A DNA stretch of 64,000 nt from an uncultured Pseudomonadales bacterium (GTDB lineage Bacteria > Patescibacteriota > Microgenomatia > UBA1400 > UBA12028), in the NCBI GenBank assembly GCA_964635905.1, contig CAZWPK010000004.1, positions 25,012 through 89,011 of the forward strand, given 5' to 3'. Shown piece after piece: positions 2,066 to 50,796 of the stretch (its first letter is position 1; the number at the start of each line of letters is the position of its first letter). Made by a program: the position numbers and the translations under genes. The notes below the pieces were generated by a model, which was not told the DNA's origin, did not search any database, and saw only the letters and a program-made list of their open reading frames with translations.

Positions 2066-3267
2066 GTAAACCCATCCACCATTCGTCTCTTTCCTCCTTT
2101 TTTCGCATTGGGGTTTTGTTAAGTATCGGGTTATGGGTATTTGGACAGTTTGAGCGTATCGAGCTTGATCAGGGCAGAGCCTTGTATGGGCATGACTTTG
2201 TACTTTTCGTACTCGTTACGATCACCGCTTGGAAATGGCGCGACGCACTACTAAAAAGTTTTTCAACTACAATTGGTGTGCTGTGGATTTCAAGCGTGAG
2301 TTGGATTGTGCTCAACATCAGTATTCACTTCGGATCTGATCCAACTGGAGCGCTCACGGGAACGTTGTACCTCGGTCGACTTTGTGTTCTGACGGGGTTT
2401 GCGTGGGCGCTAAGCATGTTGATAAAAACCCATCGACTGTCGTTACACTATTTTTCGCGGACGATTTTTGCAGCATTTTTTGCTGTCTCGGTGTTGGGAT
2501 TTGTACAATACTTTCTATTTCCAGACACCCGTTCACTGGTGTTGATGGGGTGGGACGATCATTATTTTCGGTTAATTTCTACCTTATTTGATCCTGGTTT
2601 TACCGGCATCATTTTGGCAATTGCTGCACTGTTGCATTTGCGAACTGCACTCTATAAGAAAATATCGAACGTTGAGATCTGCTTTATCGTGCTGCATGTG
2701 ATGGGATTATTGCTCACGTATTCCCGAGCCTCGTATCTGGCGTTTGCCACGGGAATTTTCTTGTTATTTTTTATTTTCCGACAGTGGAAAATTCTCTTCG
2801 TGCTACCCGTCTTTGTAAGTTTGTTACTCTTCTTGCCACGACCGGGAGGAGAAGGTGTGAAATTGGAACGAACGGCTAGTGTGGTCGCTAGAATTGAGAG
2901 TAACGCAGTGGCGCTGCAATCGAAGTCAGGTTTCAGCTGGCTAATTGGCAATGGTTGGTACGCAAAGAAAGTGGAACAACCAACGCAAGTCAAAGACGGT
3001 ATACAGGTCCCGAACCACTCCTCAGCCCCAGAGAATTCAGTTCTGTTTGTCTACTCGTCGTTAGGACTGATTGGAGTTGTTCTTATCGGACTACTGATTG
3101 GGGCAATGATCTTGCGTGTGGGATTAACGAGTGAGTTTGCAATAGTCATTTCAATGGTGCTTGTTCATTCACTCTTTTCCAATACGCTCTTTCACCCCTT
3201 CATTCTCATTCTGCTTGCCTGGATTATGGCACGAAGCGTACATGCCGCTCCTCAACAGTCTCAATGA
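2023..3267 (+). CDS. O-antigen ligase/polymerase family integral membrane protein (start uncertain)
   Basis: About 10-12 TM helices with a large loop near the C-terminal third, typical of WaaL/Wzy-like proteins; the ORF-track start at 1891 overlaps the GT2 gene, so the first in-frame ATG (2023) was chosen. Confidence 0.45.
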   Translation: MGSYSDSGDSTKAVSKPIHHSSLSSFFRIGVLLSIGLWVFGQFERIELDQGRALYGHDFVLFVLVTITAWKWRDALLKSFSTTIGVLWISSVSWIVLNISIHFGSDPTGALTGTLYLGRLCVLTGFAWALSMLIKTHRLSLHYFSRTIFAAFFAVSVLGFVQYFLFPDTRSLVLMGWDDHYFRLISTLFDPGFTGIILAIAALLHLRTALYKKISNVEICFIVLHVMGLLLTYSRASYLAFATGIFLLFFIFRQWKILFVLPVFVSLLLFLPRPGGEGVKLERTASVVARIESNAVALQSKSGFSWLIGNGWYAKKVEQPTQVKDGIQVPNHSSAPENSVLFVYSSLGLIGVVLIGLLIGAMILRVGLTSEFAIVISMVLVHSLFSNTLFHPFILILLAWIMARSVHAAPQQSQ

Positions 3268-3931
3268 GTGCAGCGTTGATGGCTTTGATGACAATGGTGT
3301 TATCGCCTTCTGATAACTGAACGGCTCCAGAGAATGCGCCATTATTGGCGACAAATAGGATGCGATCATTAATATAGACTTTGTTTCCCGCATCCGTTTT
3401 CCCTTTGACGGTGATGGGATTATCCCGTCGCTTGGTCACATCTTGATTCTCGGTAGGTGATTCAATCTCCAGCTTTGGTGCATCTTTGACAAAGGAAATG
3501 TGGAGTTCTCCGGAAGGGTTGCTTCGAACACTTTGCTCATTTTCAACCACGGCGGTAAAGGTATTGTCACCTGACTCTAACGTGACCGCATCAAAAGTAA
3601 ACGAGCCTGCGTCATCCGAACGAGTCTCTGGTCCTGGTACTCCATTTTGAAGCAAGATGACTTTGGAATTGGGTTGTGCACTTCCTGCTAGAGCTAAGGA
3701 TGCGCTCGAGGTCGCATCAAAGGGCTGCTCTAGAGTCGGACGAGAAGGCAGAATTGTATTCTCACTGGTCGCTGCTTTGTAGCCTAGGTTGCGAAGCGCC
3801 ATCACGCGAATAAATCCAGGCAGAATTAGGAAGAGAAAGGCAACAATCAAGCCTATGCCGCTTCCAAAAAAGATCAGCGTTTGACGAAGCAGTATTTTTT
3901 GTTCATGTGATTGCAGTCTGGAGTGGGGCAT
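3224..3931 (-). CDS. Membrane-anchored hypothetical protein with beta-rich extracellular domain
   Basis: N-terminal TM 'LIFFGSGIGLIVAFLFLILPGF', then a Ser/Thr/Asn-rich beta-strand-like region; convergent with the ligase gene. Confidence 0.4.
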   Translation of the reverse strand: MPHSRLQSHEQKILLRQTLIFFGSGIGLIVAFLFLILPGFIRVMALRNLGYKAATSENTILPSRPTLEQPFDATSSASLALAGSAQPNSKVILLQNGVPGPETRSDDAGSFTFDAVTLESGDNTFTAVVENEQSVRSNPSGELHISFVKDAPKLEIESPTENQDVTKRRDNPITVKGKTDAGNKVYINDRILFVANNGAFSGAVQLSEGDNTIVIKAINAALIETVEERHVRFVP

Positions 3932-17208: not shown

Positions 17209-18174
17209 ATGGCCTCTTTTCCACTACGTTTATTGCAACAACTTTTGTTAGCTTGGTATCAAAAAAATAAGCGACCATTGCCATGGAGAGAATTGGTTCC
17301 GTTGAAGAATCAGGGAGTTGGTTCATCCGTTATCCGTGACCCATATAAAGTGATCGTTTCAGAAATGATGTTGCAACAAACACAAGTGCAAACGGTGCTA
17401 CCCAAATACGCCGCCTTTCTTGAGCGTTTTCCCACTTTGGATGCGTTAGCTGCAACTCCCCTTGCGGAGGTGATCATTTCTTGGAAAGGATTAGGATATA
17501 ACCGTCGGGCAAAGCATCTCTTGGAAACTGCAAAGATAATTTCCACTACCCACAAGGGAAACTTTCCTTCGGAAGAGCAGACACTGCGATCATTACCAGG
17601 GTTTGGTCCGTATATGGTGTCTGCAGTTCAAGTTTTTGCCTTTGGAATGCAAGGCGCTGTAATTGATGTGAATGTTGCACGTGTGTTGACCCGCACCCAG
17701 GTTGGGGTAGACATTCTTCCTGCCAAAGCGCTAACAGCACTTGCAGAGCAATCCGTGCCATTAGGGCATGCTGATGACTGGCATCAGGGCTTAATGGATT
17801 TTGGATCCACCATTTGTACCGCGAAAGCACCGCGTTGTACGGACTGCCCAGTTTCAAGACTTTGTTGCGCCAATCAACAAGCAAAAGCTGCAGGTTTTCT
17901 GTCATATGCGGAGTGGCTGGTTGCGCATCCGGTCAAAAAAAAGACGTCAACAAAAGATCGTGGAAAACGTTTTGAAGAAACCGATCGCTATTTTCGTGGG
18001 CGCATTATTGACTATTTACGTCAAGGGTCATTGCCGATGGTAGAGCTACAGGAAAAAATGCGCGCAGAGCATCAGCTAGATAATCGGGTGCGCTTTGGCT
18101 CTTTAATTGAAGCTCTGATGGTCGATGGTTTAATCCAGATTCAAGGCACAGAGGTGGGATTAAAATTAACTTAA
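17209..18174 (+). CDS. mutY: A/G-specific adenine DNA glycosylase MutY-like (HhH-GPD + 4Fe-4S)
   Basis: 'LLAWYQKNKRPLPWRE', HhH 'LPGFGPYMVSAVQVFAFG', cluster 'CTAKAPRCTDCPVSRLC' (C-x6-C-x2-C-x5-C). Confidence 0.7.
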   Translation: MASFPLRLLQQLLLAWYQKNKRPLPWRELVPLKNQGVGSSVIRDPYKVIVSEMMLQQTQVQTVLPKYAAFLERFPTLDALAATPLAEVIISWKGLGYNRRAKHLLETAKIISTTHKGNFPSEEQTLRSLPGFGPYMVSAVQVFAFGMQGAVIDVNVARVLTRTQVGVDILPAKALTALAEQSVPLGHADDWHQGLMDFGSTICTAKAPRCTDCPVSRLCCANQQAKAAGFLSYAEWLVAHPVKKKTSTKDRGKRFEETDRYFRGRIIDYLRQGSLPMVELQEKMRAEHQLDNRVRFGSLIEALMVDGLIQIQGTEVGLKLT

Positions 18175-19484
18175 AGGATATCCACGCGCAAAATGAGCTC
18201 AACAAGTTGCGCCAGGAAATAGGAACAAAACAGCAATAAGAATCCAACCACCGCATTGGTGATGCGATGTTTTCCAGCTTCCTGACTTTGCGGATTACTA
18301 GCTCCGCCCAACATTTCAAAACCGCCCCAAATAATCATGGTAAACAAAATGAGTCCCGAGAAGGTGAACAGATAGGGAAGTGCGCGCGAAATTATTCCTC
18401 GGGGAGTTGTTAAGTCTGCATTGGGCTGGCCATTGAAAATTGCTTGATTGAGTTGGTCGAATGTATAAGCACTTGCACCAGACTCGCCGATGGCTGGGGC
18501 GGTTGGAAGAACAGTTGGCGGTGGGGTATTGGGACTTGCCGGGGCAGTTGCTGAACAACCAGATAAGCTATTATCTGCCCACCCACAACACAGCGCTCCC
18601 GGTTGCGGTGGAACGAACGGCGTATTAACTGCACAGCCGCAGGTTTCGGTTGCTGGGTTGTATGCCTGTCCACAAGACTTTGCCGGACGTGGAATAGTGG
18701 CAGGATCTTGACGTGCACAGTTATCATTGCCTCCATCCAGGTTTAGTGGATCATTCCAGCCACAGCAAATGCGACCTGACGGAAGTGTCTGCGTTCCATT
18801 GGCACAAATACAGTTTGTTGTAGCTTGTCTGCTAGCAGGGTATGATTCTCCACACACAGCCGGAACCGGAGCAGAAGAAGGTTCATTCTGGAGACAAATA
18901 CCTCGGCTATCTACCCATCCACAACAAAAGTTTTGGGTACCAAAATCATTTACTCCACTGCGACAGGTACACGAGGTGTTAGACATTCTTGGAATGATTG
19001 CCCCACAACTGGCATAGGAGGTTGGGGGAGTGGCAAAACAACTATCATTGGTAACTGTTCCGCAGCAGGTTTTGATAGTGTTGTCGGATTCATCGAGGTA
19101 GGATCCATTCGCAGGACAGCTGGGGTCACAGACGGCATTCGGTCTTTCGTTCGTGTATCCGCTGCCACAAGCAATGACTTCTGCTTCTCCAGCGCCCACA
19201 ATAGGCCGACACACAGCATTGGCTGTGCCTTTGTTTTCGATATACCCACAGCAATATCGATTAGGATCCGACGTTCCTCCAGAGTACTCAGCTTGACAGT
19301 CGGATGGACAGATATTTTGTGGTGCAGTATATTCCTGCCCACAGGTACCTGCGTATTGAGCTTGAGCAGATCCAGGAGAAACTCCAATAAACAAGAATAG
19401 CGAAAGAAGTACAATCCAACAATAACGCATACAGCTTGATCCAGTGTAGCGTATTGCAAAAGTCAGCGAAAGAAGAGCAAACAT
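18171..19484 (-). CDS. Secreted Cys-rich repeat protein with C-terminal two-helix membrane hairpin
   Basis: Signal peptide 'MRYCWIVLLSLFLFIGVSPGSAQA'; five recurrences of '[YFIL]CCG[YTW]' in ~55-aa units; C-terminal hydrophobic-loop-hydrophobic segment. Confidence 0.5.
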   Translation of the reverse strand: MFALLSLTFAIRYTGSSCMRYCWIVLLSLFLFIGVSPGSAQAQYAGTCGQEYTAPQNICPSDCQAEYSGGTSDPNRYCCGYIENKGTANAVCRPIVGAGEAEVIACGSGYTNERPNAVCDPSCPANGSYLDESDNTIKTCCGTVTNDSCFATPPTSYASCGAIIPRMSNTSCTCRSGVNDFGTQNFCCGWVDSRGICLQNEPSSAPVPAVCGESYPASRQATTNCICANGTQTLPSGRICCGWNDPLNLDGGNDNCARQDPATIPRPAKSCGQAYNPATETCGCAVNTPFVPPQPGALCCGWADNSLSGCSATAPASPNTPPPTVLPTAPAIGESGASAYTFDQLNQAIFNGQPNADLTTPRGIISRALPYLFTFSGLILFTMIIWGGFEMLGGASNPQSQEAGKHRITNAVVGFLLLFCSYFLAQLVELILRVDIL

Positions 19485-19570
19485 CAGCGAATGGACTCTT
19501 GATAGTGGAACACATGGTCTCTTGCTATAATGAGGTGTTCTTTTCTTCCACTTAGAGAGTGAGATGTCCT

Positions 19571-20428
19571 ATGGAACAGCTGTTTACGTTGATTATTTAT
19601 CAGCCTTTTTTGAACATTTTAGTGTTCTTCTATTGGTTGCTCGGGGAAATTGGGATGAAGCCCGATATGGGTGTAGCGGTCATTCTGATGACCTTAGTGC
19701 TTCGGGTTGTAATGATTCCGCTCTCCATCGCCTCTGATCGCAGTGAACATGAACGCGAAGAAATAGGGCAACGGGCCCGGGAAATTCAAGAAAAGTATTC
19801 TTCAGACCCGGTGCGGATGAATCATGAGCTCAAGCTCATTATGCGGACCAAACCACGCATTTTGATTGCGGAGATGGTCGAGCTCTTTATCAACATTGTT
19901 ATTTTCTTTTTACTGTTGCGTCTCTTTAGCAGGGGACTGGAAGGAGCAGACCTGCATCTTTTGTATCCGATATTTCCCCACCCTCCTACACCATATAACT
20001 TAGTTTTCTTAGGGCGTTTTGATTTGACCCACCCCAATGTGTTCTTAAACTTGTTGCAGTCCTTTGTCATCTTGCTCGTCGAAGTGGCCGCAGAATACAC
20101 CTCTCCGTTTCGCAATATTTTGTCCTTACAGAAGAAAACAGAGGTTGTCAGTGTCAATCCGATTACTCGGACGGGAACGCGCTATGCCTACGAGACGCGA
20201 TCACGCATTCGGTCTCTACAATTCTTCTTACCCATCGTCTCGTTTCTCATTTTCATGTTTCTGCCTGCCGGCAAGAAACTCTTTATCGTGACGACCTTAC
20301 TTTTTAGTCTGTTTTTGATGCTCTTAAAGGCGATTCGGCGTTACTTTATTCAAGCGTTTCCCGCACCAGCCAGTGAACCAGAGCCCATCCCAACGAGTCC
20401 AGAAGCGCCGAGCTCTTCACATTCCTAA
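19571..20428 (+). CDS. yidC: Membrane protein insertase YidC/Oxa1 family (short form)
   Basis: 'IIYQPFLNILVFFYWLLG...GVAVILMTLVLRVVMIPLSI' matches the conserved YidC TM core; ATG chosen over upstream GTG. Confidence 0.7.
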   Translation: MEQLFTLIIYQPFLNILVFFYWLLGEIGMKPDMGVAVILMTLVLRVVMIPLSIASDRSEHEREEIGQRAREIQEKYSSDPVRMNHELKLIMRTKPRILIAEMVELFINIVIFFLLLRLFSRGLEGADLHLLYPIFPHPPTPYNLVFLGRFDLTHPNVFLNLLQSFVILLVEVAAEYTSPFRNILSLQKKTEVVSVNPITRTGTRYAYETRSRIRSLQFFLPIVSFLIFMFLPAGKKLFIVTTLLFSLFLMLLKAIRRYFIQAFPAPASEPEPIPTSPEAPSSSHS

Positions 20429-24268: not shown

Positions 24269-24877
24269 ATGAATATTACTTCTATCTATTTCCACTATAA
24301 AATTCCACTCAACCTAGAACGTCATATGCTGCAGGTAACTGCGGTAGGGATGTTTGTATGTGATGCCTGGAATGGTCCGGTTATAAACCGAGATCTTATT
24401 CGTTCTGCCTTACTCCTCCACGACATGGGAAATATCCTCAAATTTAAGCGACCTTTTCTAGGGGAACTTGAGGACAATGCTGCGTATTGGGAACAGGTCC
24501 GAGAGGACTATCAAGCCAAGTATGGAACAGATGTGCAGCAGGCAACGCTAGCTATTGTTCAAGAGTTAGGACTATCCGATGTGTACAATCTTCTTGTGGA
24601 AATGCGATCCGCCTGGGAACAGGAGGCAGTGGTCTCTTGGGAAACTCGGATCTGTGAGTATGCGGACTGTTGCGTCACACCCAATGGCATTGAAGGTTTT
24701 GAAACACGGATTACTGATCTAAAGAACCGCTATGATCTCGAAGAAAGTTCAACAACCATCGTACTTCTTCGAAAAAATGCAGAAATGGTTAAGGAACATG
24801 TTTCAAGTGAAGTATTAACTCTTCAGACTCAGGATTTCTCTACTGAAATGAAACGCTTAAAAGAAGTGGAAGTGTAG
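24269..24877 (+). CDS. HD-domain protein (putative phosphohydrolase), tentative
   Basis: 'ERHMLQV...LLLHDMGNILKF' fits the H...HD metal-binding motif; ATG 24269 chosen because the upstream ORF extension runs through a strong hairpin. Confidence 0.45.
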   Translation: MNITSIYFHYKIPLNLERHMLQVTAVGMFVCDAWNGPVINRDLIRSALLLHDMGNILKFKRPFLGELEDNAAYWEQVREDYQAKYGTDVQQATLAIVQELGLSDVYNLLVEMRSAWEQEAVVSWETRICEYADCCVTPNGIEGFETRITDLKNRYDLEESSTTIVLLRKNAEMVKEHVSSEVLTLQTQDFSTEMKRLKEVEV

Positions 24878-24879
24878 GG

Positions 24880-24953
24880 TGTCAGGGGCGGGCTTCGATC
24901 CCGCGACCGCCACGTTATGAATGTGGTGCTCTACCAGCTGAGCTACCCTGACA
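24880..24953 (-). tRNA. tRNA-Met (anticodon CAT)
   Basis: Reverse complement GTCAGGG-TA-GCTC-AGCTGGTA-GAGC...anticodon loop UUCAUAA...GGATCGAAGCC...CCCTGAC-A; CCA not encoded. Confidence 0.7.
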
Positions 24954-25031
24954 ATGAGTGTTGCCTAGTTTTGCCAGACAAAGTACTATTTTATACCATC
25001 AATCCGCCTTTGCGGCGGATTGAAATCATGT

Positions 25032-25099
25032 TGCGGGGCAAGGAGTCGAACCTTGTCTGCGAGATTATGAGCCTCACGTGCAGCCGTACACTACCCCGC
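25032..25099 (-). tRNA. tRNA-like gene, anticodon CAT (initiator or Ile2/lysidine type?), atypical short D-arm
   Basis: Reverse complement GCGGGGT...anticodon loop CUCAUAA...GGTTCGACTCC...GCCCCGC-A; only ~68 nt with a 3-bp D-stem; CCA not encoded. Confidence 0.45.
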
Positions 25100-25155
25100 G
25101 CGCAAGGGTACTATCGTACCACGAAGATTCTCTCTGGACAACCTGGTGTCATGTG

Positions 25156-28832: not shown

Positions 28833-29465
28833 ATGATGAAATCTGTTGGAGAATTATTGCGGTCCAATCGTGAGAAGCAAAAAAAAACGTTAGAATCGAT
28901 TGCTAAAACCACGCAAATTAAACTGGAATATTTGCAAGCTCTAGAAGAGGATGAGTTTCATCGCTTGCCCTCGATTGTTGCCGCAACTGGATTTTTGGTC
29001 ACCTATGCACAAGCCCTAGAGCTAGATCCAACGACTGCCGTTGCTCTCATGCGGCGCGACTTTCCCACGGTGCAAGATGTGTCGTATCCGATTCTAGTGG
29101 TCCGACGACATGCGCGCGAGCAACGAAAACGCATCATTGGGATCGCACTTTCATTATTAGCAGTTTTTCTAGTCTTAGTCTCTGGCTATGGATTTTGGAG
29201 CTATCAGCGCGTCCGACAAGCTCCGCGGGTGACGATTCTTTCCCCAGAAGATGGCGAACAAGTGATCTCTCCAGTGGTGATTCGAGGCAAAACAGCGTCA
29301 GATGCCATCGTCGAAATCGATGGACAATCCATCGGTGTGAATCAAGATGGAGACTTTGTGACCCAACTCGATTTAAATCCGGGCGATCATGTGATCAGTG
29401 TAAATGTGAAAAACCGTTATGGAAACGCTCAGTTAACGCAGGTCATGATCAAGGTAGAAAAGTGA
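28833..29465 (+). CDS. RodZ-like cytoskeleton protein (HTH + TM + C-terminal domain)
   Basis: XRE-type HTH 'SVGELLRSNREKQKKTLESIAKTTQIKLEYLQALEEDEF', TM 'IIGIALSLLAVFLVLVSGYGFW', beta-rich C-terminal domain. Confidence 0.55.
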   Translation: MMKSVGELLRSNREKQKKTLESIAKTTQIKLEYLQALEEDEFHRLPSIVAATGFLVTYAQALELDPTTAVALMRRDFPTVQDVSYPILVVRRHAREQRKRIIGIALSLLAVFLVLVSGYGFWSYQRVRQAPRVTILSPEDGEQVISPVVIRGKTASDAIVEIDGQSIGVNQDGDFVTQLDLNPGDHVISVNVKNRYGNAQLTQVMIKVEK

Positions 29466-32634: not shown

Positions 32635-34650
32635 ATGAAACTGCCATTTCTTGGCTCCTCTCAACCAGTCCATTCAATCTATTCCATCGCCATCAGTAGT
32701 GGTGTCGTTTGGGCTTCCAGTTGGCATGTAGAGGGAAGTGAGATTAAAGTTGATTCGATTTCTGAACCCATCGAATGGGATAGTAATGATGAAGAAACCT
32801 TGCTAGAAGCAGTAGATACTGCGATAGCAAACTTTCCCGCAGCCGCGGAAATCTTATTTGCTCTTCCTGATGATTGGGTCAATGGTCAGGGAATTGCCCA
32901 AACAAAAAAACCGCTATTACGTACCCTCACGCAAAAGTTAGAACTCCATTCTGTGGGATTTGTCGTGACAGCAGAAGCCGTCATCGCTCGGCTCACGGAA
33001 CAATCCAATACTCCTTTTAGTGCGGTTTGTGTGTTTGTCGAAGAACAATCATTTGTCGTCTCATGTGTGCGTCATGGCCAATCGTCATCACTGATTCGGG
33101 TTGGGAGAAGTGGAGAGAGCGTGAATGATTTGATGGAGGCATTTAGCCGACTCAAAGCAACTGATCTTCCATCCCTCTTAGTTCTCTCAACCTTGTCTGC
33201 TTCCGACGAAGAGTTGCAGGAACTCGCCAATGAGATCACCTCCAATAACTGGAATCCATCGTTATTTCAACAGTTGCCAAAGATCCTCCATATTGAGCCT
33301 AAACAAGTACTCATTGCGGTGTCGCAGACTGGTGGCAAGGAAGTGGCAAAAGTCCTTGGGTTTGCAACTGCCAAACCAGAGGCTGCCCATACACCCCCAA
33401 GCTTCACTCCCGTCGTTGCACCCCAGCAGGAAGAAACTGAAGAGCCAACTCAAGAAGAAGAGCTCGTTCACGACGATGATATGGATGGTCAACGGGCATC
33501 GTTGTTATCCAGACTTCCAAAACCAGTTCTTGTGGGTGGAGTGATTCTTCTTCTCCTGGGTGTAGCCGGAGCACTTGCATCGTTTTTGTTCTTGCCGAAT
33601 CTAACCAAAGCCACGGTGGCAATTACCTCCAAGTCTAATCAGCTTTCCATGAGTCAGACCGTTATTCTAGATCCAAAAGCAGAATCACCTACAGAGTCCA
33701 CACTTCCGGTGAGCCTAAGTTCCACCCAAGTTACCGGTTCCAAAGAAGTCCCGACCACAGGGAAGAAAACCGTGGGAGATAAAGCGAAAGGAACAGTCAC
33801 AATCTATAACAAGACGTCCCAAGCCAAAAGCTTTCCAGCGGGATCCACAGTCAAGTTTGGAAAGTTGTCTTTTGTGACGGATGAAGAAGTGAGTGTTGCT
33901 AGTGCAAGTTCGACGATGAGTGAGACTGTCCATGGGAAAGCCACAGTGAAGGCGACGGCATCCGTACCTGGAGAAGAGAGTAACATTGGATCTAATCAAG
34001 AGCTCATTGTGGGCACCTATGACCAATCGGCGTTCATTGCCAAAAGCGAAACAGCCTTTATAGGTGGTAACAGTAAGAGTGTAACCTCGGTAACGCAAAA
34101 AGATCAGGACGAAGCGGTCAAAGCACTAACAGTCGATTTGAAAGAACAAGCCAAAGAGGCGGTCAAACTTACAGCCAATGAGGTTCAAGAGGTGATTGTT
34201 CTCGATGATCTCGTTGTTACTTCAAAAACCTTTAACCAGCCAGTGGGAGCGGAAGCGAGCTCTGTTTCGGTCACCATGAATGCAAGTGCCTCTGGGTTGC
34301 TGTATACCAAGGGTCAAATGCAATCCTTTGCCAAAGAGAAACTCCAAATCCAAGCTGCGGGGCAGTCCCTTGTGGAACCAAGCGTCACCGTCGAAGTGAC
34401 TGGACAAAAACTACTGGGGAAACAGCAGGTGGAACTTACCCTTGCATTGTCTGCACAAAGTAAGCCAACCGTCGATCCCACCTCGATCGCAAAAATACTG
34501 GCTGGAAAAAATCTAGAAGAAAGTAAAGCCTTTTTGGATTCTCAGGATTCGATTGCATCCTACACCATAACCACATCGCCCTCTTTCTTACGTGTGTTCA
34601 CATCCAAGCTACCTAAGAATGTCGACCATATTACCGTCACCGTTGACTAG
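32635..34650 (+). CDS. Large bitopic membrane protein: cytoplasmic N-domain (possibly actin-like FtsA/PilM-like), TM, Ser/Thr-rich extracellular domain
   Basis: TM 'VLVGGVILLLLGVAGALASFLFL' at ~aa 300; N-terminal 'SIYSIAISSGVVWASSW' resembles the phosphate-1 beta-hairpin of FtsA/PilM; C-terminal 340 aa beta-rich, S/T/K-rich. Confidence 0.45.
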   Translation: MKLPFLGSSQPVHSIYSIAISSGVVWASSWHVEGSEIKVDSISEPIEWDSNDEETLLEAVDTAIANFPAAAEILFALPDDWVNGQGIAQTKKPLLRTLTQKLELHSVGFVVTAEAVIARLTEQSNTPFSAVCVFVEEQSFVVSCVRHGQSSSLIRVGRSGESVNDLMEAFSRLKATDLPSLLVLSTLSASDEELQELANEITSNNWNPSLFQQLPKILHIEPKQVLIAVSQTGGKEVAKVLGFATAKPEAAHTPPSFTPVVAPQQEETEEPTQEEELVHDDDMDGQRASLLSRLPKPVLVGGVILLLLGVAGALASFLFLPNLTKATVAITSKSNQLSMSQTVILDPKAESPTESTLPVSLSSTQVTGSKEVPTTGKKTVGDKAKGTVTIYNKTSQAKSFPAGSTVKFGKLSFVTDEEVSVASASSTMSETVHGKATVKATASVPGEESNIGSNQELIVGTYDQSAFIAKSETAFIGGNSKSVTSVTQKDQDEAVKALTVDLKEQAKEAVKLTANEVQEVIVLDDLVVTSKTFNQPVGAEASSVSVTMNASASGLLYTKGQMQSFAKEKLQIQAAGQSLVEPSVTVEVTGQKLLGKQQVELTLALSAQSKPTVDPTSIAKILAGKNLEESKAFLDSQDSIASYTITTSPSFLRVFTSKLPKNVDHITVTVD

Positions 34651-34665
34651 TCTTCTGCCTGTATT

Positions 34666-35505
34666 TTGAGTACACTGAATGCGTATCCTCCTATGGCAGT
34701 CATTCGTTACACAAAACACCGTCCTGTTTCTCGACCACCAGTACGAACCAAGATCAAACGCGAACGGATGATCAAATTATTTGTGTTGCATCGATTAGCA
34801 CCCTTCTTTCTCATGGCCACCGGTGTATTCTTACTGGTGAGTGTGGTGTTTCCCATTTTAAGCTCGGAATTGAATCGGTCGACGTCGATTCAAGCTGGAG
34901 CAACACAGAATCTCTCTGAATCCGAATTGGCAATGGATTCGATATCTCCGCGAGAATATTTATTACCCACTCCCATTCCGACACCCATCATCGTTTCGGA
35001 CACTCTCGACTTTACCGATCTCTCTAACTGGTTTCCAGATTCGGTTCTTCCTATCGTTGAACCAAAAGAAGAAAAGCGCTATTTGATTTCCATTCCAAAA
35101 GTGAATATTGAAGATGCAGAAGTAGTCGTGGGTGGAAAAGAATTGGATGATCACTTAATCCAATATCCAGGGACATCTTTACCTGGTGATTTTGGAGCTC
35201 CGGTCATCTTTGGTCACTCGGTGTTACGTTCGTTCTATAATCCGGCAAAATCGAATCCACGTCGGTACATTTCCATTTTCTCAAAGATTATGACCTTATC
35301 AAAAGGTGATGAAATTCTCGTAAATGAAGATGGGGTGCACTATCGCTATCAGGTGCTCTCCAAAACCGAAGTTCAACCAACAGATTTATTCATTCTAGAG
35401 CAGCAACGAGATAGCCGACTTCTTAAATTAGTTACCTGTGTTCCGGAAGGGACCTATTTGCGTCGCGGAGTGGTGACGGCAGTCCTTGTAGAATCGAAGC
35501 GATAA
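34666..35505 (+). CDS. Sortase family transpeptidase
   Basis: N-terminal TM; catalytic His 'APVIFGHSVL', Cys 'LKLVTCVPEG', Arg 'LRRGVV' in canonical order. Confidence 0.75.
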   Translation: MSTLNAYPPMAVIRYTKHRPVSRPPVRTKIKRERMIKLFVLHRLAPFFLMATGVFLLVSVVFPILSSELNRSTSIQAGATQNLSESELAMDSISPREYLLPTPIPTPIIVSDTLDFTDLSNWFPDSVLPIVEPKEEKRYLISIPKVNIEDAEVVVGGKELDDHLIQYPGTSLPGDFGAPVIFGHSVLRSFYNPAKSNPRRYISIFSKIMTLSKGDEILVNEDGVHYRYQVLSKTEVQPTDLFILEQQRDSRLLKLVTCVPEGTYLRRGVVTAVLVESKR

Positions 35506-36990: not shown

Positions 36991-37214
36991 GCGACGCTTC
37001 AGAACCAATTTTTATCACTCCTAAAACAGATCTTGTTCTCCTGGAAGATCGCTATGGTCTAGACGCGCTTCGTGGGGCAATGGATGATCCGAAACTCCCT
37101 GCAGAGATTCAATCAATTGTAGCGTTCTACGTACTATCAACTTCGAGTGGAACAGAGTTGAAGCGAGCAGTTGTTTCTGAATATCCAGCTGGATGGAAAC
37201 AGAGACGTCAATAG
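36987..37214 (+). CDS. Small hypothetical protein
   Basis: 75 aa ORF ATGA-coupled to mltG; acidic, no motif. Confidence 0.3.
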   Translation: MSDASEPIFITPKTDLVLLEDRYGLDALRGAMDDPKLPAEIQSIVAFYVLSTSSGTELKRAVVSEYPAGWKQRRQ

Positions 37215-37285
37215 TTCTTAGAGAATGTATCTGTGATGGTAGACACAGGAAATATTCAGCTTCTAAGCGTACAATAGCATACGTG

Positions 37286-38851
37286 ATGATGCTTAAACTC
37301 TTGATTCCCGTATTGGCACTTCTTGGTCTACTTGATGCCGGGTACCTTACCTATGAAAAAATGATGGGAATCGTTCCTCCCTGCAGCCCATCCTTTGACT
37401 GTGAGACGGTATTGCAGAGTTCTTGGTCATCCATCGGACCCATTCCTGTCTCGGTGATGGGGATGCTTTACTATACTGTCATCTTGTTTTTGGGAAGCCT
37501 TCTTGTTCTGGATGTGAAAAACATTCCATTTCGAGGACGTGGTGTCTCCCTATTTCAGATCGTGCGATTCGTCTCTACTGTTGGCTTTTTAAGCTCAATG
37601 GGGTTTGTGTATCTGATGGCGGTTGTGATTCAAGCCTGGTGTCCCTATTGTGTAATCTCCGCTGGAATTAGTACGGTTCTCTTCCTGATTGTGTATCTCT
37701 TGTCGCGCAGTCGCACCCAAAGTACCCAAAGAGTCTCAGAGTATCCCTTAAATCTGGCATTCTTTGCTTTTGTCTATCAGGTTCTCTTAAAACCAATTTT
37801 ATTTCGGTTTAACCCGGAAACGATTCATCATCTCTTTGTTCGGTTTGGAAAAATACTCGGGATGACTCCAGCAACGCGGGCATTAACACGTTGGTGTTTT
37901 TCCTATCCCAATTCTGTCCCCATTGTTCTTGCTGGTATCGATTTCACAAACAAAGTTGGATTATCCGCAGGGTTTGACTATGATGCGGACCTTACGCAGA
38001 TTCTTCCGGACATCGGTTTTGGGTTTGCAACCCTGGGTACAGTGACATTGCACCCATATGAGGGGAACACCCGACCAATGCTCACGCGCTTTCCAGACTC
38101 AAAAGCGCTTTTGGTAAATAAAGGCTTTAAGTCCATCGGAGCCCCTGCGGTGATTGCGAAACTAGAAGGGCAGACCTTTCGAATTCCCATTGGTATTAGT
38201 ATCGGGAGCACCAATAAGATTTTTAACTCCTCCAAGGAACAGATCGATGATGTGGTAAAAACTTTTCGGCTGTTTGAAGCTTCCAGTGTTGCGCACTCCT
38301 ACTATGAATTGAATATCAGTTGTCCCAACACCAAAGGAGGACAACCCTTTACGGATGCGAAGCGCTTAGATGCACTGCTCAAAGCCTTACGAGTGCTCCA
38401 GATTCAAAAGCCCGTGTTCGTCAAACTTCCCATCGATCTTGCGGATGGCTTAAGTCGGGCGACTACCCATACACAGCTACTCTCCCTGGTAGACCGAATG
38501 TCAAAAGAACCCTGGATCGTTGGCCTCATCAGTGGCAATTTAACTAAAGATCATGAAAATACTTCCGTTTCCACTTCCGACCGCACACAATGGAAGCAAC
38601 GCAAAGGAGGAATTAGCGGGAAACCTACCTTTGAACGCTCTAATCTCCTTATTTCCGCACTCCGCAAACGCTTTAGGTCTCGTTTTCTTATTATTGGGAC
38701 AGGAGGGGTTTTTTCCGGCGAGGATGCGCTAACAAAGCTTTCATCGGGAGCGGACCTTGTGCAGTTAATTACAGGAATGATCTATCAAGGCCCGCAGGTA
38801 ATTGGAGATATTAATTGGGTCCTCTCGGGAAAAGACTCTAAAAAAAAGTGA
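37286..38851 (+). CDS. Fusion protein: N-terminal VKOR (vitamin K epoxide reductase/DsbB-like) membrane domain + C-terminal family-2-like dihydroorotate dehydrogenase (FMN TIM barrel)
   Basis: VKOR: loop Cys pair 'PPCSPSFDC', TM CXXC 'AWCPYCVISAG'. DHODH: 'LFRFNPETIHHLFVRF' (quinone-site helices), 'GIDFTNKVGLSAGFD', 'GFGFATLGTVTLHPYEGNTRPMLTRF', 'LVNKGFKSIG', 'ELNISCPNTKG', 'GGISGKP', 'IIGTGGVFSGEDA...LVQLITGMIYQGP' match E. coli PyrD block by block. Confidence 0.75.
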   Translation: MMLKLLIPVLALLGLLDAGYLTYEKMMGIVPPCSPSFDCETVLQSSWSSIGPIPVSVMGMLYYTVILFLGSLLVLDVKNIPFRGRGVSLFQIVRFVSTVGFLSSMGFVYLMAVVIQAWCPYCVISAGISTVLFLIVYLLSRSRTQSTQRVSEYPLNLAFFAFVYQVLLKPILFRFNPETIHHLFVRFGKILGMTPATRALTRWCFSYPNSVPIVLAGIDFTNKVGLSAGFDYDADLTQILPDIGFGFATLGTVTLHPYEGNTRPMLTRFPDSKALLVNKGFKSIGAPAVIAKLEGQTFRIPIGISIGSTNKIFNSSKEQIDDVVKTFRLFEASSVAHSYYELNISCPNTKGGQPFTDAKRLDALLKALRVLQIQKPVFVKLPIDLADGLSRATTHTQLLSLVDRMSKEPWIVGLISGNLTKDHENTSVSTSDRTQWKQRKGGISGKPTFERSNLLISALRKRFRSRFLIIGTGGVFSGEDALTKLSSGADLVQLITGMIYQGPQVIGDINWVLSGKDSKKK

Positions 38852-46350: not shown

Positions 46351-46953
46351 TTGTTTGGGTATCATTTGGGAATGAAATCACTGACGCTCGATCAAGTTAA
46401 AATCGCCATTACTTTGGGTACGATCGCAATTGCGATTGTTCATATCTGTTTTCCAACCTTAGGTATCGACACCACAACATTGGTTTTGATCGGAATTGCG
46501 ATTTTTCCTTGGATTTTCCCCATCCTTAAATCCATTGAGTTTCCTGGAGGTTTAAAGATTGAAATGGCCGACTTACAAAAATTAGGGATGGAGGCGAAGG
46601 AATCTGGGCTATTGGAACGAAAGAAAAAACCAACCAAAAAATCCTATCCCTTTGAACAAGTGACGCAAGTGGATCCTAATTTAGCTCTCGCGGGACTGCT
46701 AATCGAAATTGAAAAAGTATTACACAAAATAGCTGAGAAGAATTCGATCAAAAATTCATCGTCCTCCGTACTTTTGATTCGTCATATGGTCCGGGATGAT
46801 ATTCTGTCGGTGGAAGAGGGTGTAGTCCTCTCGGACCTTCTCACTTTATTATCCCAAGCTGTCCATGGTGCGGTGGTGGACCCCGAGGCTTCTGCCTGGG
46901 CAATCACGACCGGAATCTTAATTCTAGAAGCCTTAGAAGCGCGATTAAGTTAG
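46351..46953 (+). CDS. Hypothetical membrane protein (2-3 N-terminal TMs + soluble C-terminal domain)
   Basis: 'IAITLGTIAIAIVHICF', 'LVLIGIAIFPWIFPIL' TM segments; no motif; lies between rpoC and rpsL. Confidence 0.4.
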   Translation: MFGYHLGMKSLTLDQVKIAITLGTIAIAIVHICFPTLGIDTTTLVLIGIAIFPWIFPILKSIEFPGGLKIEMADLQKLGMEAKESGLLERKKKPTKKSYPFEQVTQVDPNLALAGLLIEIEKVLHKIAEKNSIKNSSSSVLLIRHMVRDDILSVEEGVVLSDLLTLLSQAVHGAVVDPEASAWAITTGILILEALEARLS

Positions 46954-50361: not shown

Positions 50362-50796
50362 ATGAATGAGAACACTCATCCGTTGTCTCTCTACTTTCAG
50401 TTACGAAATATCCAGTATGGAAAGGAAAGAAAAGATACTGAGAGGTTAAATGATCGAAAGGGAGAAGTCTCTACCAGAAAGAAACTGGAAGGACATTATT
50501 TGTCAGCGCTACGGTATAAAGTTGAGCATATGCAGAAGTATTTGGATGCATTACTCTCAACCGAGGATGGAAATTCTGATCTAGCATTTCTTGCAATTCG
50601 AGGGTTTAACCTAACCTTACAAGAAACTATTATCGCTGCCGAGCAAGAAGCCGTTGCACTTATTGAAGAATGGAATACAAGTGCGGAACCAAAAGACTGG
50701 GTAAATAAATCGCTAAACAATATTGGGAATGAACTACTGAGTTTGTTTGATATAGAACAGAAAAAAGATAAGTTTATTAGTTCAAGAAGAAACTAG
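50362..50796 (+). CDS. Hypothetical protein inserted between fusA and tuf
   Basis: 144 aa ORF starting 4 nt after the fusA stop; helical, K/E-rich; locally AT-rich. Confidence 0.4.
   Translation: MNENTHPLSLYFQLRNIQYGKERKDTERLNDRKGEVSTRKKLEGHYLSALRYKVEHMQKYLDALLSTEDGNSDLAFLAIRGFNLTLQETIIAAEQEAVALIEEWNTSAEPKDWVNKSLNNIGNELLSLFDIEQKKDKFISSRRN

What the first reader, a model, noticed from the sequence alone, without database searches (positions are those of the whole stretch)
18171..19484. Secreted Cys-rich 'CCGW/CCGY' repeat protein ending in a two-helix membrane hairpin
After a clean signal peptide, the 437-aa protein has five ~55-aa units, each with a Cys-Cys-Gly-aromatic core (YCCGYIENKG, TCCGTVTND, FCCGWVDSRG, ICCGWNDP, LCCGWADNS) and 4-6 further Cys, about 40 Cys in total. 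This implies a disulfide-knotted ectodomain. The C-terminus is a hydrophobic-loop-hydrophobic hairpin (LPYLFTFSGLILFTMIIWGGF...NAVVGFLLLFCSYFLAQLVELIL) reminiscent of VirB2/TrbC-type pilin anchors. It is not a sortase signal or a single C-terminal TM. It could be an adhesin or a host/partner-interaction surface protein of an epibiotic or small-genome organism. The disulfide-rich fold also ties in functionally with the VKOR disulfide-generating fusion elsewhere in the window.
Basis: seen in the sequence. Interest (0 to 1): 0.55.

Follow-up and report, generated by a model that had tools for sequence, protein, structure and literature searches.

The report
Cysteine-rich modular conjugation-type pilin
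A tiny-genome (Woesebacteria/CPR) bacterium encodes a conjugation-type (VirB2-like) pilin with five copies of a previously undescribed six-cysteine module grafted onto its outward-facing end, which makes it a candidate for the so far unidentified adhesin of these bacteria's type IV secretion pilus.

Summary
ORF 18171-19484(-) encodes a signal peptide, five ~40-aa six-Cys "CG…C…C…CCG[WYF]…C" modules, a Pro/Thr linker and a two-helix C-terminus. Two corrections: there are 33 Cys (30 in the ectodomain, 6 per module), not about 40, and the start is probably M19 (419 aa).

The C-terminus is a real member of Pfam PF18895 T4SS_pilin (34.8 bits; cut-off 26.6). This is the VirB2-like pilin family of Patescibacteria.

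The CCG module matches no Pfam family and no PDB sequence or fold. A profile search of 1.84 billion proteins found it in only 17 genuine proteins. All 17 are signal peptide + modules + pilin hairpin, on at least two distinct pilin sequence types.

Close relatives carry a bare ~107-aa pilin that is 79% identical in the pilin domain. In 28 related species, 22 of 31 such pilins have Cys-containing N-terminal extensions. The gene is under strong purifying selection (dN/dS 0.06 ectodomain, 0.01 pilin).

Best reading: a modular T4SS pilin that displays a disulfide-bonded adhesin array on the pilus or cell surface. This is inferred, not shown. No VirB4, VirB6 or VirD4 gene lies in the window. It is a new variant of a known kind, of moderate interest.

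The parts
18171..19430 (-). Probable coding sequence (419 aa plus stop) of the modular pilin, starting at M19 of the ORF
   Evidence: ORF. The 419-aa form P0001 is 100% identical, and orthologues start at the equivalent Met. dN/dS is 0.01-0.06 against the sister species.
19431..19484 (-). Upstream in-frame extension of 18 codons (MFALLSLTFAIRYTGSSC). Probably 5' leader rather than coding.
   Evidence: The sister orthologue has no Met at this position. One database member is called at 437 aa. Not resolved.
19359..19430 (-). Sec-type signal peptide MRYCWIVLLSLFLFIGVSPGSAQA, with predicted cleavage after AQA
   Evidence: Read from the sequence. Hydropathy peak. Modelled as helix 2-15, with pLDDT below 50 at 19-25. 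No dedicated signal-peptide predictor was available.
19206..19346 (-). CCG module 1 (aa 47-93)
   Evidence: HMM domain hit, iE 4.3e-8. Sequence.
19038..19175 (-). CCG module 2 (aa 104-149), CxxxCPANG subtype
   Evidence: HMM domain hit, iE 4.5e-14. The single-unit AlphaFold2 model has pLDDT 86.3 and is all-beta.
18894..19013 (-). CCG module 3 (aa 158-197), CxC subtype
   Evidence: HMM domain hit, iE 1.7e-9.
18717..18857 (-). CCG module 4 (aa 210-256), CxC subtype
   Evidence: HMM domain hit, iE 8.9e-10.
18552..18677 (-). CCG module 5 (aa 270-311), CxC subtype
   Evidence: HMM domain hit, iE 2.5e-9.
18471..18551 (-). Pro/Thr/Ala-rich flexible linker ATAPASPNTPPPTVLPTAPAIGESGAS
   Evidence: Sequence. 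pLDDT is below 50 at P0001 residues 302-319. This segment is less conserved than its flanks (76.9% identity over P0001 residues 295-322).
18174..18470 (-). VirB2-like T4SS pilin domain (aa 339-437): short amphipathic helix, TM helix 1, basic loop, TM helix 2
   Evidence: PF18895 match, E 1.8e-8, 34.8 bits against a cut-off of 26.6. 99% identical to the sister species, dN/dS 0.011. 79-88% identical to the bare and 1-module paralogues of the lineage.
18306..18404 (-). Helix 1 of the hairpin (aa 361-393, PRGIISRALPYLFTFSGLILFTMIIWGGFEMLG)
   Evidence: AlphaFold2 helix 343-375 in P0001 numbering. Hydropathy.
18189..18293 (-). Basic loop plus helix 2 of the hairpin (aa 398-432). K and R of the GKxR motif are invariant among the 13 closest homologues.
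   Evidence: AlphaFold2 helix 380-414. Invariant K387 and R389 in alignment A1.
37193..38851 (+). VKOR domain (aa 37-167, CSPSFDC and CPYC motifs) fused to a dihydroorotate-dehydrogenase domain. Candidate disulfide-generating enzyme for the ectodomain. The link is inferred only.
   Evidence: Pfam PF07884 at 3.3e-23 and PF01180 at 1.5e-48. Motifs read.

Best explanation
The gene encodes a modular VirB2-like (T4SS-type) pilin of a Woesebacteria-like Patescibacterium.

Shown:
- A Sec-type leader is followed by five tandem copies of a new ~40-aa six-Cys beta module, consensus CG-x2-[YFW]-x(5-12)-C-x(1-3)-C-x(12-20)-CCG-[WYF]-x(4-12)-C.
- Next comes a disordered Pro/Thr linker, then a complete PF18895 pilin domain.
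- Free-standing ~107-aa pilins with the same domain exist in the same lineage.

Inferred mechanism:
1. The precursor is exported by Sec, and the leader is cleaved after AQA.
2. The hairpin inserts with the N-terminus out, the basic loop in the cytoplasm and the C-terminus out.
3. The 30 ectodomain Cys are oxidised to about 15 disulfides outside the cell, three per module, possibly by the VKOR encoded in the window.
4. The T4SS extracts the pilin domain from the membrane and co-polymerises it with the bare paralogue. [quoted passage not shown] The linker and the five-module array would therefore project from the pilus surface, or from its tip if the protein is a minor subunit.
5. The array acts as an adhesin or host-recognition element for the partner cell. 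The target could be a surface glycan, since each module has three conserved aromatic positions.
For: Pilin domain:
- PF18895 is matched above the gathering cut-off. All 21 C-terminal domains of the family match it, and 9 also weakly match PF04956 TrbC/VirB2.
- The hairpin is modelled as two long helices with pLDDT 74-83.

Module:
- Five units are detected with an HMM built from other proteins.
- The six Cys and two Gly are invariant in 26 units, and three positions are aromatic in 17-22 of 26 units.
- The unit model has pLDDT 86.3 and is all-beta.

Exclusive association:
- A profile search of 1.84 billion representatives gave 19 hits. Two are low-complexity junk. The other 17 all have leader + CCG units + pilin hairpin, on at least two distinct pilin sequence types.

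Same domain as bare pilins:
- The 107-aa P0055 is 79% identical and the 1-module paralogue P0008 is 88% identical in the pilin domain. Five-module proteins of other genomes are only 60-72% identical.
- The sister MAG carries both the orthologue and that paralogue.
- In 28 GTDB species loci, 22 of 31 pilins of this type have Cys-containing extensions and 9 are bare.

Selection:
- dN/dS is 0.056 for the ectodomain and 0.011 for the pilin domain.

Geometry and background:
- In the F pilus the N- and C-termini of TraA lie on the outside and the loop lines the lumen (PMC5018250).
- VirB2-like pilin arrays are essential in the one genetically tractable Patescibacterium (PMC10633639). No T4SS adhesin has been found in the phylum (PMC12102498).
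- A VKOR with an intact active site is in the window.
Against: - No T4SS machinery gene (VirB4, VirB6, VirD4) is in the 64-kb window. None was recognised among the large ORFs scanned within 10 kb of the related pilin loci.
- The gene sits among housekeeping genes (mutY-like, yidC, groEL).
- Nobody has shown that Patescibacterial PF18895 proteins form pili at all. The 2025 review still calls it a possibility.
- It is not known whether a 28-kDa N-terminal load is compatible with polymerisation.
- Disulfide connectivity could not be read, because model coordinates are not returned.
- The full-length model has pTM of only 0.30, and modules 1 and 5 have pLDDT 57-72.
- Fold searches gave no significant match to solved conjugative pilins. 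The best, 8dfu, has E 8.4.
- A binding target is pure inference.
Confidence: 0.5

Rival explanations
1. Membrane-anchored surface protein. The pilin-type hairpin serves only as a two-helix membrane anchor. The protein never leaves the cytoplasmic membrane and presents its Cys-rich array at the cell surface as an adhesin or receptor, independently of any T4SS.
For: The gene lies far from any recognisable T4SS gene and among housekeeping genes. Polymerisation of Patescibacterial pilins is unproven. A 27-residue flexible linker plus five modules would suit projection through a thin wall.
Against: The pilin domain is the most constrained part of the protein (99% identity, dN/dS 0.011). It stays 79-88% identical to the bare pilin and the other extended paralogue of the same lineage. 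That is more than a generic anchor needs. The CCG module is never found on any other kind of anchor among 1.84 billion proteins.
Confidence: 0.27
2. Tip or initiator subunit, a functional analogue of VirB5. A single ring of the extended pilin caps or nucleates the pilus built from the bare pilin and small array pilins, placing the adhesin array only at the distal end.
For: No VirB5 or PrgB-type adhesin has been found in Patescibacteria. Loci in relatives pair one bare pilin with one extended pilin. The bulky ectodomain favours low stoichiometry.
Against: Nothing in the sequence separates a tip position from incorporation along the shaft. Some genomes appear to have only extended forms in the fetched loci, although those loci cover only 20 kb.
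Confidence: 0.15
3. Precursor of released Cys-rich peptides, such as a toxin, bacteriocin or protease inhibitor. The modules would be cut from the anchor and act as soluble effectors.
For: Small disulfide-rich modules separated by linkers resemble polyprotein precursors of defence peptides. This comes from general knowledge. No tool result supports it.
Against: There are no conserved dibasic or other processing motifs between units. Inter-unit linkers are short and variable. The modules are always tied to a pilin domain. There is no match to inhibitor or toxin families in Pfam or the PDB.
Confidence: 0.04
4. Spurious or decaying ORF whose Cys pattern is a compositional accident.
For: None beyond the absence of annotation. 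NCBI calls the orthologue a hypothetical protein.
Against: Orthologues are 83-86% identical, with dN/dS 0.01-0.06 and all Cys conserved. There are five significant HMM units and a Pfam domain above cut-off. Synteny with the sister MAG is conserved.
Confidence: 0.01

Closest known systems
Patescibacterial VirB2-like pilins (Pfam PF18895 T4SS_pilin), including the essential pilin array of Ca. Southlakia epibionticum and the 2-11-gene arrays described by Quinonero-Coronel et al. 2025
   Same: The C-terminal 99 aa belong to this family. The two-helix hairpin has a basic loop. The phylum is the same. Relatives carry arrays of 6-10 small pilins a few kb away.
   Different: Described members are small, about 100-160 aa (PMC12102498). 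This one carries a ~270-aa, 30-Cys, five-module ectodomain plus linker between leader and pilin. It lies outside any array or T4SS cluster. No paper in the searched library mentions Cys-rich or extended T4SS pilins.
Conjugative pilins TraA, VirB2 and TrbC of diderm T4SS (PF04956)
   Same: Same hairpin plan. The predicted membrane topology is the same, with both termini outside, so an N-terminal fusion would be surface-displayed (PMC5018250). Weak PF04956 hits occur in 8-9 relatives.
   Different: The target itself does not hit PF04956. There is no significant sequence or fold match to solved pilins. There is no C-terminal tail for TraF-type cyclisation. The host is a monoderm. The N-terminal load is large.
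Modular type IV pilins (T4P), such as Streptococcus sanguinis PilB (PMC8179133)
   Same: Same design principle: a functional adhesion module grafted onto a pilin polymerisation moiety, co-assembling with a plain major pilin.
   Different: Unrelated filament system. There is no class III signal peptide or N-terminal alpha-1 helix. In those pilins the module is C-terminal, whereas here it is N-terminal. This is an analogy only.
Small disulfide-rich binding modules (hevein/CBM18, CBM1, knottins, EGF, and the tetraspanin EC2 'CCG' motif)
   Same: Similar size (~40 aa), six Cys including a CC doublet, conserved aromatic residues, and tandem arrays on surface proteins.

Membership tests
PF18895 T4SS_pilin (Patescibacterial VirB2-like pilin) | Significant match to the family HMM above the curated gathering score | tested here: met
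   E 1.8e-8, 34.8 bits against a cut-off of 26.6, residues 367-427 aligned to profile positions 11-70 of 71. All 21 family C-termini match.
PF18895 T4SS_pilin (Patescibacterial VirB2-like pilin) | Two hydrophobic helices joined by a short polar, basic loop | tested here: met
   Hydropathy peaks at 371-389 and 411-429 with a polar loop between. AlphaFold2 helices 343-375 and 380-414. K and R of the loop are invariant in A1.
PF18895 T4SS_pilin (Patescibacterial VirB2-like pilin) | Small protein (~100-160 aa) consisting of little more than leader plus hairpin | tested here: not met
   The protein is 419-437 aa, with about 320 residues before the pilin domain. The best 120 subfamily hits listed are 101-161 aa. 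It is therefore a variant architecture.
PF18895 T4SS_pilin (Patescibacterial VirB2-like pilin) | Genomic association with T4SS genes (virB4, trsD, virB3, virB6) or with a pilin array | tested here: not met
   None is in the 64-kb window, and there is no second pilin in the window. In relatives the paralogous locus lies 4-6 kb from arrays of 6-10 pilins, but no VirB4 was recognised within 10 kb. The rest of the genome was not available.
PF18895 T4SS_pilin (Patescibacterial VirB2-like pilin) | Assembly into a T4SS-dependent filament | not testable with these tools
   Not shown experimentally for any Patescibacterial pilin. No multimer modelling tool was available.
PF04956 TrbC/VirB2 pilin | Match to the family HMM | tested here: not met
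   The target has no hit at E up to 10. Eight or nine relatives hit weakly, best E 5.9e-4, below the cut-off.
Type IV (T4P) pilins | Class III signal peptide (G|F/M-xxxE) and an N-terminal hydrophobic alpha-1 helix | tested here: not met
   The leader is a type I Sec signal ending AQA|QY, and the hydrophobic helices are C-terminal.
Sortase-anchored (LPxTG) surface proteins | C-terminal LPxTG, then a single hydrophobic segment and a basic tail | tested here: not met
   No LPxT[GAS] motif, and there are two helices. A sortase gene is in the window at 34666-35505, but nothing links it to this protein.
Known Cys-rich domain families (hevein/CBM18, knottin, EGF, granulin, tetraspanin EC2) | HMM or fold match | tested here: not met

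The most novel reading that the evidence does not exclude
These are the first modular VirB2-type pilins. On this reading, CPR T4SS pili are heteropolymers in which a bare pilin forms the shaft. Paralogues with a near-identical polymerisation domain graft interchangeable disulfide-bonded ectodomains onto the filament surface. The CCG module would be a new host-envelope (possibly glycan) binding fold, and these proteins would supply the so far unidentified adhesin that sets host range in Microgenomatia.
Probability: 0.35. Interest if true: 0.72.

Novelty: new variant of a known kind. Interest (0 to 1): 0.55.

Why it matters
Patescibacteria make up a large share of bacterial diversity. They appear to live attached to host cells, and in the one tractable species the T4SS and its VirB2-like pilin array are essential. 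Yet no adhesin has been found for this machine, and it is not even known whether the pilins form a filament.

A pilin that carries its own five-module, disulfide-stabilised ectodomain, together with the finding that such extended pilins are the rule in one conserved locus of this clade, gives a concrete candidate for host recognition. It also defines a new domain family to curate. The ectodomain should be expressible on its own for binding screens, and the pilin domains of the bare and extended paralogues could be tested for co-assembly.

The case would also extend the 'modular pilin' principle, known from type IV pili, to conjugation-type pili.

Tried and rejected
1. NCBIfam gave only a sub-threshold hit to the Mycoplasma ICE pilin-like family NF045849 (E 1.1e-3, 18.6 bits against a cut-off of 40). 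This fits a pilin-like hairpin but is not membership.
2. A PDB sequence-profile search with the repeat unit gave only the tetraspanin CD82 'CCGW' motif at E 1.7. I rejected it as chance.
3. A PDB profile search with the pilin domain gave only non-specific membrane-helix hits (E 0.013 or worse).
5. The afdb50 fold library was unavailable.
6. The word-indexed protein search with the short unit alignment found no candidates, so that search was wasted.
7. I searched the window for a second pilin with a subfamily HMM and found none.
8. Promoter and terminator scans around the gene were no better than shuffled sequence.
9. The large proteins that follow the pilin arrays or pairs in relatives (965-1252 aa) have no Pfam match. 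Most have a hydrophobic N-terminal segment and 8-22 Cys, and they are only weakly related to one another. They are not recognisable as VirB4 or VirB6.
10. The neighbouring yidC as a dedicated insertase: the adjacency is conserved in the sister species. However, the paralogous loci in other genomes are not next to yidC, so I treat it as coincidence.
11. The positive-inside rule alone does not fix the topology, because both flanks of helix 1 are about +1. The topology is inferred from the signal peptide and the Cys-rich ectodomain.
Full report
**1. What is in the sequence**

The minus-strand ORF 18171..19484 exists and encodes 437 aa. The identical protein is in public collections as a 419-aa product that starts at M19. 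The three closest orthologues (83-86% identity) start at the equivalent MRY, MRH or MRF. From M19 the N-terminus is a textbook Sec leader, MRYCWIVLLSLFLFIGVSPGSAQA|QY. I therefore take 18171..19430 as the probable CDS and leave the 18 upstream codons unresolved.

The protein has 33 Cys, not about 40. Two are in the leader and one is in the second membrane helix. The other 30 lie in the ectodomain as five groups of exactly six. Each group follows CG-x2-[YFW]-x(5-12)-C-x(1-3)-C-x(12-20)-CCG-[WYF]-x(4-12)-C.

An HMM built only from units of other proteins finds five units here, at 47-93, 104-149, 158-197, 210-256 and 270-311, with independent E-values from 4e-8 to 5e-14. Five CCG tripeptides were reached once in 200,000 shuffles. 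In an alignment of 26 non-redundant units the six Cys and two Gly are invariant. Three positions are aromatic in 17, 17 and 22 of the 26 units.

After the last unit comes a Pro/Thr/Ala-rich stretch of 27 residues, then a 99-residue C-terminal domain with two hydrophobic segments separated by a polar loop. There is no LPxTG motif.

**2. The C-terminus is a T4SS pilin domain**

Pfam PF18895 (T4SS_pilin) matches residues 367-427 at E 1.8e-8, 34.8 bits against a gathering score of 26.6. It is the only Pfam hit at E up to 10. NCBIfam adds a sub-threshold hit to a Mycoplasma ICE pilin-like family.

All 21 C-terminal domains of the wider family match PF18895, and 9 also weakly match PF04956 TrbC/VirB2. 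A scan of 20 full-length relatives gave the same picture. AlphaFold2, run with a 20-sequence alignment, models a short amphipathic helix followed by two long helices (343-375 and 380-414 in 419-aa numbering) with pLDDT 74-83.

No solved structure matches at the sequence level. Fold search returns only non-significant helical hairpins, including the archaeal conjugative pilin 8dfu at E 8.4. Membership therefore rests on the HMM.

PF18895 is the profile used to define the VirB2-like pilins of Patescibacteria. These occur in arrays of 2-11 genes (PMC12102498) and are essential in Ca. Southlakia epibionticum (PMC10633639). The 2025 review still treats pilus formation as a possibility rather than a fact (PMC12857230).

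**3. The CCG module is new and is tied to pilins**

No Pfam family covers the ectodomain in any of 20 related proteins at E up to 10. A PDB profile search gives only the tetraspanin CD82 'CCGW' motif at E 1.7, which is chance.

A profile search of the unit against 1.84 billion cluster representatives returned only 19 proteins at E of 1e-3 or better. Two are low-complexity junk. The other 17 are all leader + 1-5 CCG units + C-terminal pilin hairpin. The hairpins fall into at least two clearly different sequence types:
- The WGGFEML…QEAGKQRIT type of the target, which I call type B.
- An IWTAVGCIPT…GDPKK…ITSALIGLIFIIFS type, which I call type A.

Further examples of both types turned up in metagenome contigs. 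The module is therefore rare, old enough to sit on different pilin types, and so far never seen without a pilin domain.

**4. Organism and context**

The window is a housekeeping stretch. It contains rpoB and rpoC, fusA, tuf, ribosomal proteins, secY, groEL, ftsK, alaS, yidC and four tRNAs. The target is flanked by a convergent mutY-like gene, whose stop codon overlaps the target's by 4 nt, and by a divergent yidC.

An 86%-identical orthologue lies in a Candidatus Woesebacteria MAG. That contig is collinear with window positions 16.4-23.9 kb. No VirB4, VirB6 or VirD4 gene and no second pilin are in the window.

**5. Relatives reveal the system**

More distant homologues occupy a conserved locus:
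- spoIID on the minus strand;
- a 250-470-aa Cys-containing protein with a weaker PF18895 domain (type A where I checked it, in L041);
- one or two type B pilins;
- uppS on the minus strand;
- an ECF sigma factor on the minus strand;
- an array of 6-10 small pilins;
- a protein of about 1000 aa or more with no Pfam match, usually with a hydrophobic N-terminal segment.

A distant 841-kb contig has spoIID, a type A pilin, a 3xCCG type B pilin and then a 965-aa secreted protein.

Across 28 GTDB species loci there are 31 type B pilins. Twenty-two carry N-terminal extensions of 100-320 residues with 3-31 Cys. Nine are bare, with 0-2 Cys. Only six contain CCG units. Some bare forms, such as the 107-aa P0055, have no signal peptide at all. 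Their acidic ~35-residue N-tail aligns with the segment that follows the linker in the target. The ectodomain plus leader is therefore an N-terminal addition to a complete pilin.

The sister Woesebacteria MAG carries both the target's orthologue (KBD71_03390) and, on another contig, the spoIID-type locus. That locus holds a bare pilin and a 358-aa Cys-rich paralogue with one CCG unit (KBD71_05155). The same paralogue and bare pilin occur in the read set that also contains an exact copy of the target.

Pilin domains group by genome rather than by ectodomain. The target is 88% identical to the 1-unit paralogue and 79% identical to the bare pilin of its lineage. It is only 60-72% identical to five-unit proteins of other genomes.

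**6. Selection**

Against the sister orthologue (dS about 1.2, near saturation), dN/dS is 0.056 for the ectodomain (88.5% identity, all Cys retained). It is 0.011 for the pilin domain (99% identity). The linker and leader are the least conserved parts. Both halves are functional, and the pilin half is exceptionally constrained.

**7. Mechanism**

Shown: the architecture, the family membership of the C-terminus, the novelty and exclusivity of the module, co-occurrence with bare paralogues, and purifying selection.

Inferred:
- (a) Sec export and leader cleavage.
- (b) N-out, loop-in, C-out insertion. This follows from the leader and the Cys-rich exported domain. Charge bias alone is not decisive.
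- (c) Oxidation of the 30 Cys to about 15 disulfides. A VKOR with a loop Cys pair and a CPYC site is encoded at 37193-38851. The link to this protein is circumstantial.
- (d) Extraction and co-polymerisation with the bare pilin by the T4SS. In F-type pili both termini of TraA are on the outside and the inter-helix loop lines the lumen (PMC5018250). The linker and five modules would therefore project outward.
- (e) Adhesion to the partner cell. The phylum-wide survey found no T4SS adhesin.

The design parallels the modular pilins of type IV pili (PMC8179133), but in an unrelated filament family.

**8. Rivals**

- The hairpin may be only a membrane anchor (0.27).
- The protein may be a tip or initiator subunit rather than a shaft decoration (0.15). 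This is a sub-case of the main model.
- The modules may be released peptides (0.04).
- The ORF may be spurious (0.01, effectively refuted).

The main weaknesses of the preferred model are these. No T4SS genes lie near the gene. Polymerisation is unproven for the whole family. No multimer modelling or coordinate-level disulfide check was possible.

**9. Novelty and verdict**

The pilin family and its arrays are known. What I did not find in Pfam, in the PDB or in the searched literature is the Cys-rich CCG module, its exclusive fusion to pilins, or the broader observation that extended, Cys-containing VirB2-like pilins are the norm in a conserved spoIID-adjacent locus of this clade.

I rate it a new variant of a known kind, with interest 0.55.

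Noticed in passing
window 37193-38851 (+): A 552-aa fusion of a VKOR domain (aa 37-167, with the CSPSFDC loop pair and CPYC active site) to a dihydroorotate-dehydrogenase domain (aa 246-541). It is an unusual pairing of two quinone-linked redox modules in an organism expected to lack a respiratory chain. It could be an electron sink for disulfide formation.
   Followed up: partly
L004 4489-7306; L009; L010 8898-11073; L011; L041 7709-14192 and other loci: A conserved cassette in related Patescibacteria: spoIID (minus strand), then a large Cys-containing pilin with a weak PF18895 domain (type A, 'IWTAVGCIPT', where checked in L041), then a bare and/or extended type B pilin. SpoIID is a peptidoglycan-cleaving enzyme. 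It might play the wall-opening role of the VirB1 that most of these genomes lack. Speculative.
   Followed up: partly
L008 16861-19990; L010 14376-18105; L020 9085-14085; L022 14358-18306: Arrays of 6-10 small PF18895-type pilin genes lie immediately downstream of a divergently oriented ECF sigma factor. They are followed by a protein of about 1000 aa or more with no Pfam match, a hydrophobic N-terminal segment and 8-22 Cys.
   Followed up: partly
L004 5861-6184 (P0055) and P0035, P0038, P0073, P0088: Some bare pilins of this subfamily have no signal peptide. They have only an acidic ~30-aa N-tail before the hairpin, whereas others (P0030, P0057, P0063, P0071) have a classical leader. This suggests two insertion routes (N-tail translocation versus Sec) within one pilin family. 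Truncated gene calls were not excluded.
   Followed up: partly
window 18171-18174: The stop codons of the target (minus strand) and of the convergent mutY-like HhH-GPD gene (17209-18174, plus strand) overlap by 4 nt, so there is no room for a terminator between them. The same arrangement is seen in L001.
   Followed up: no
window 19559-20428 (+): A YidC/Oxa1 insertase gene is divergently adjacent to the target. The adjacency is kept in the sister MAG (L006). Paralogous pilin loci in other genomes are not next to yidC, so this is probably coincidence.
   Followed up: yes
window 34666-35505 (+) and 32635-34650 (+): A sortase gene is preceded by a 671-aa ORF that has no convincing Pfam match and no LPxTG motif. 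The sortase substrate was not identified in the window.
   Followed up: partly
window 3224-3931 (-) and 28833-29465 (+): Two proteins carry a C-terminal Glucodextran_B-type domain. The second also has an N-terminal HTH_25 domain.
   Followed up: no
window 24877-24953 and 25030-25100 (-): Two tRNA-Met(CAT) genes lie 77 nt apart, next to a DivIC-like gene and a XerC/D-type recombinase gene.
   Followed up: no
window 46351-46953 (+) and 50362-50796 (+): Two ORFs without Pfam matches are inserted in otherwise canonical operons. One (200 aa, membrane-like N-terminus) lies between rpoC and rpsL. The other (144 aa) lies between fusA and tuf.
   Followed up: no
L007, L010, L011, L014-L016, L018, L022, L024, L027-L029, L031-L033 (record titles): Many contigs that carry this Patescibacteria-type pilin locus are titled 'uncultured Pseudomonadales bacterium' in the public records, and L017 is titled 'Vitreimonas sp.'. 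These are probably placeholder names, mislabelled names or binning errors.
   Followed up: no
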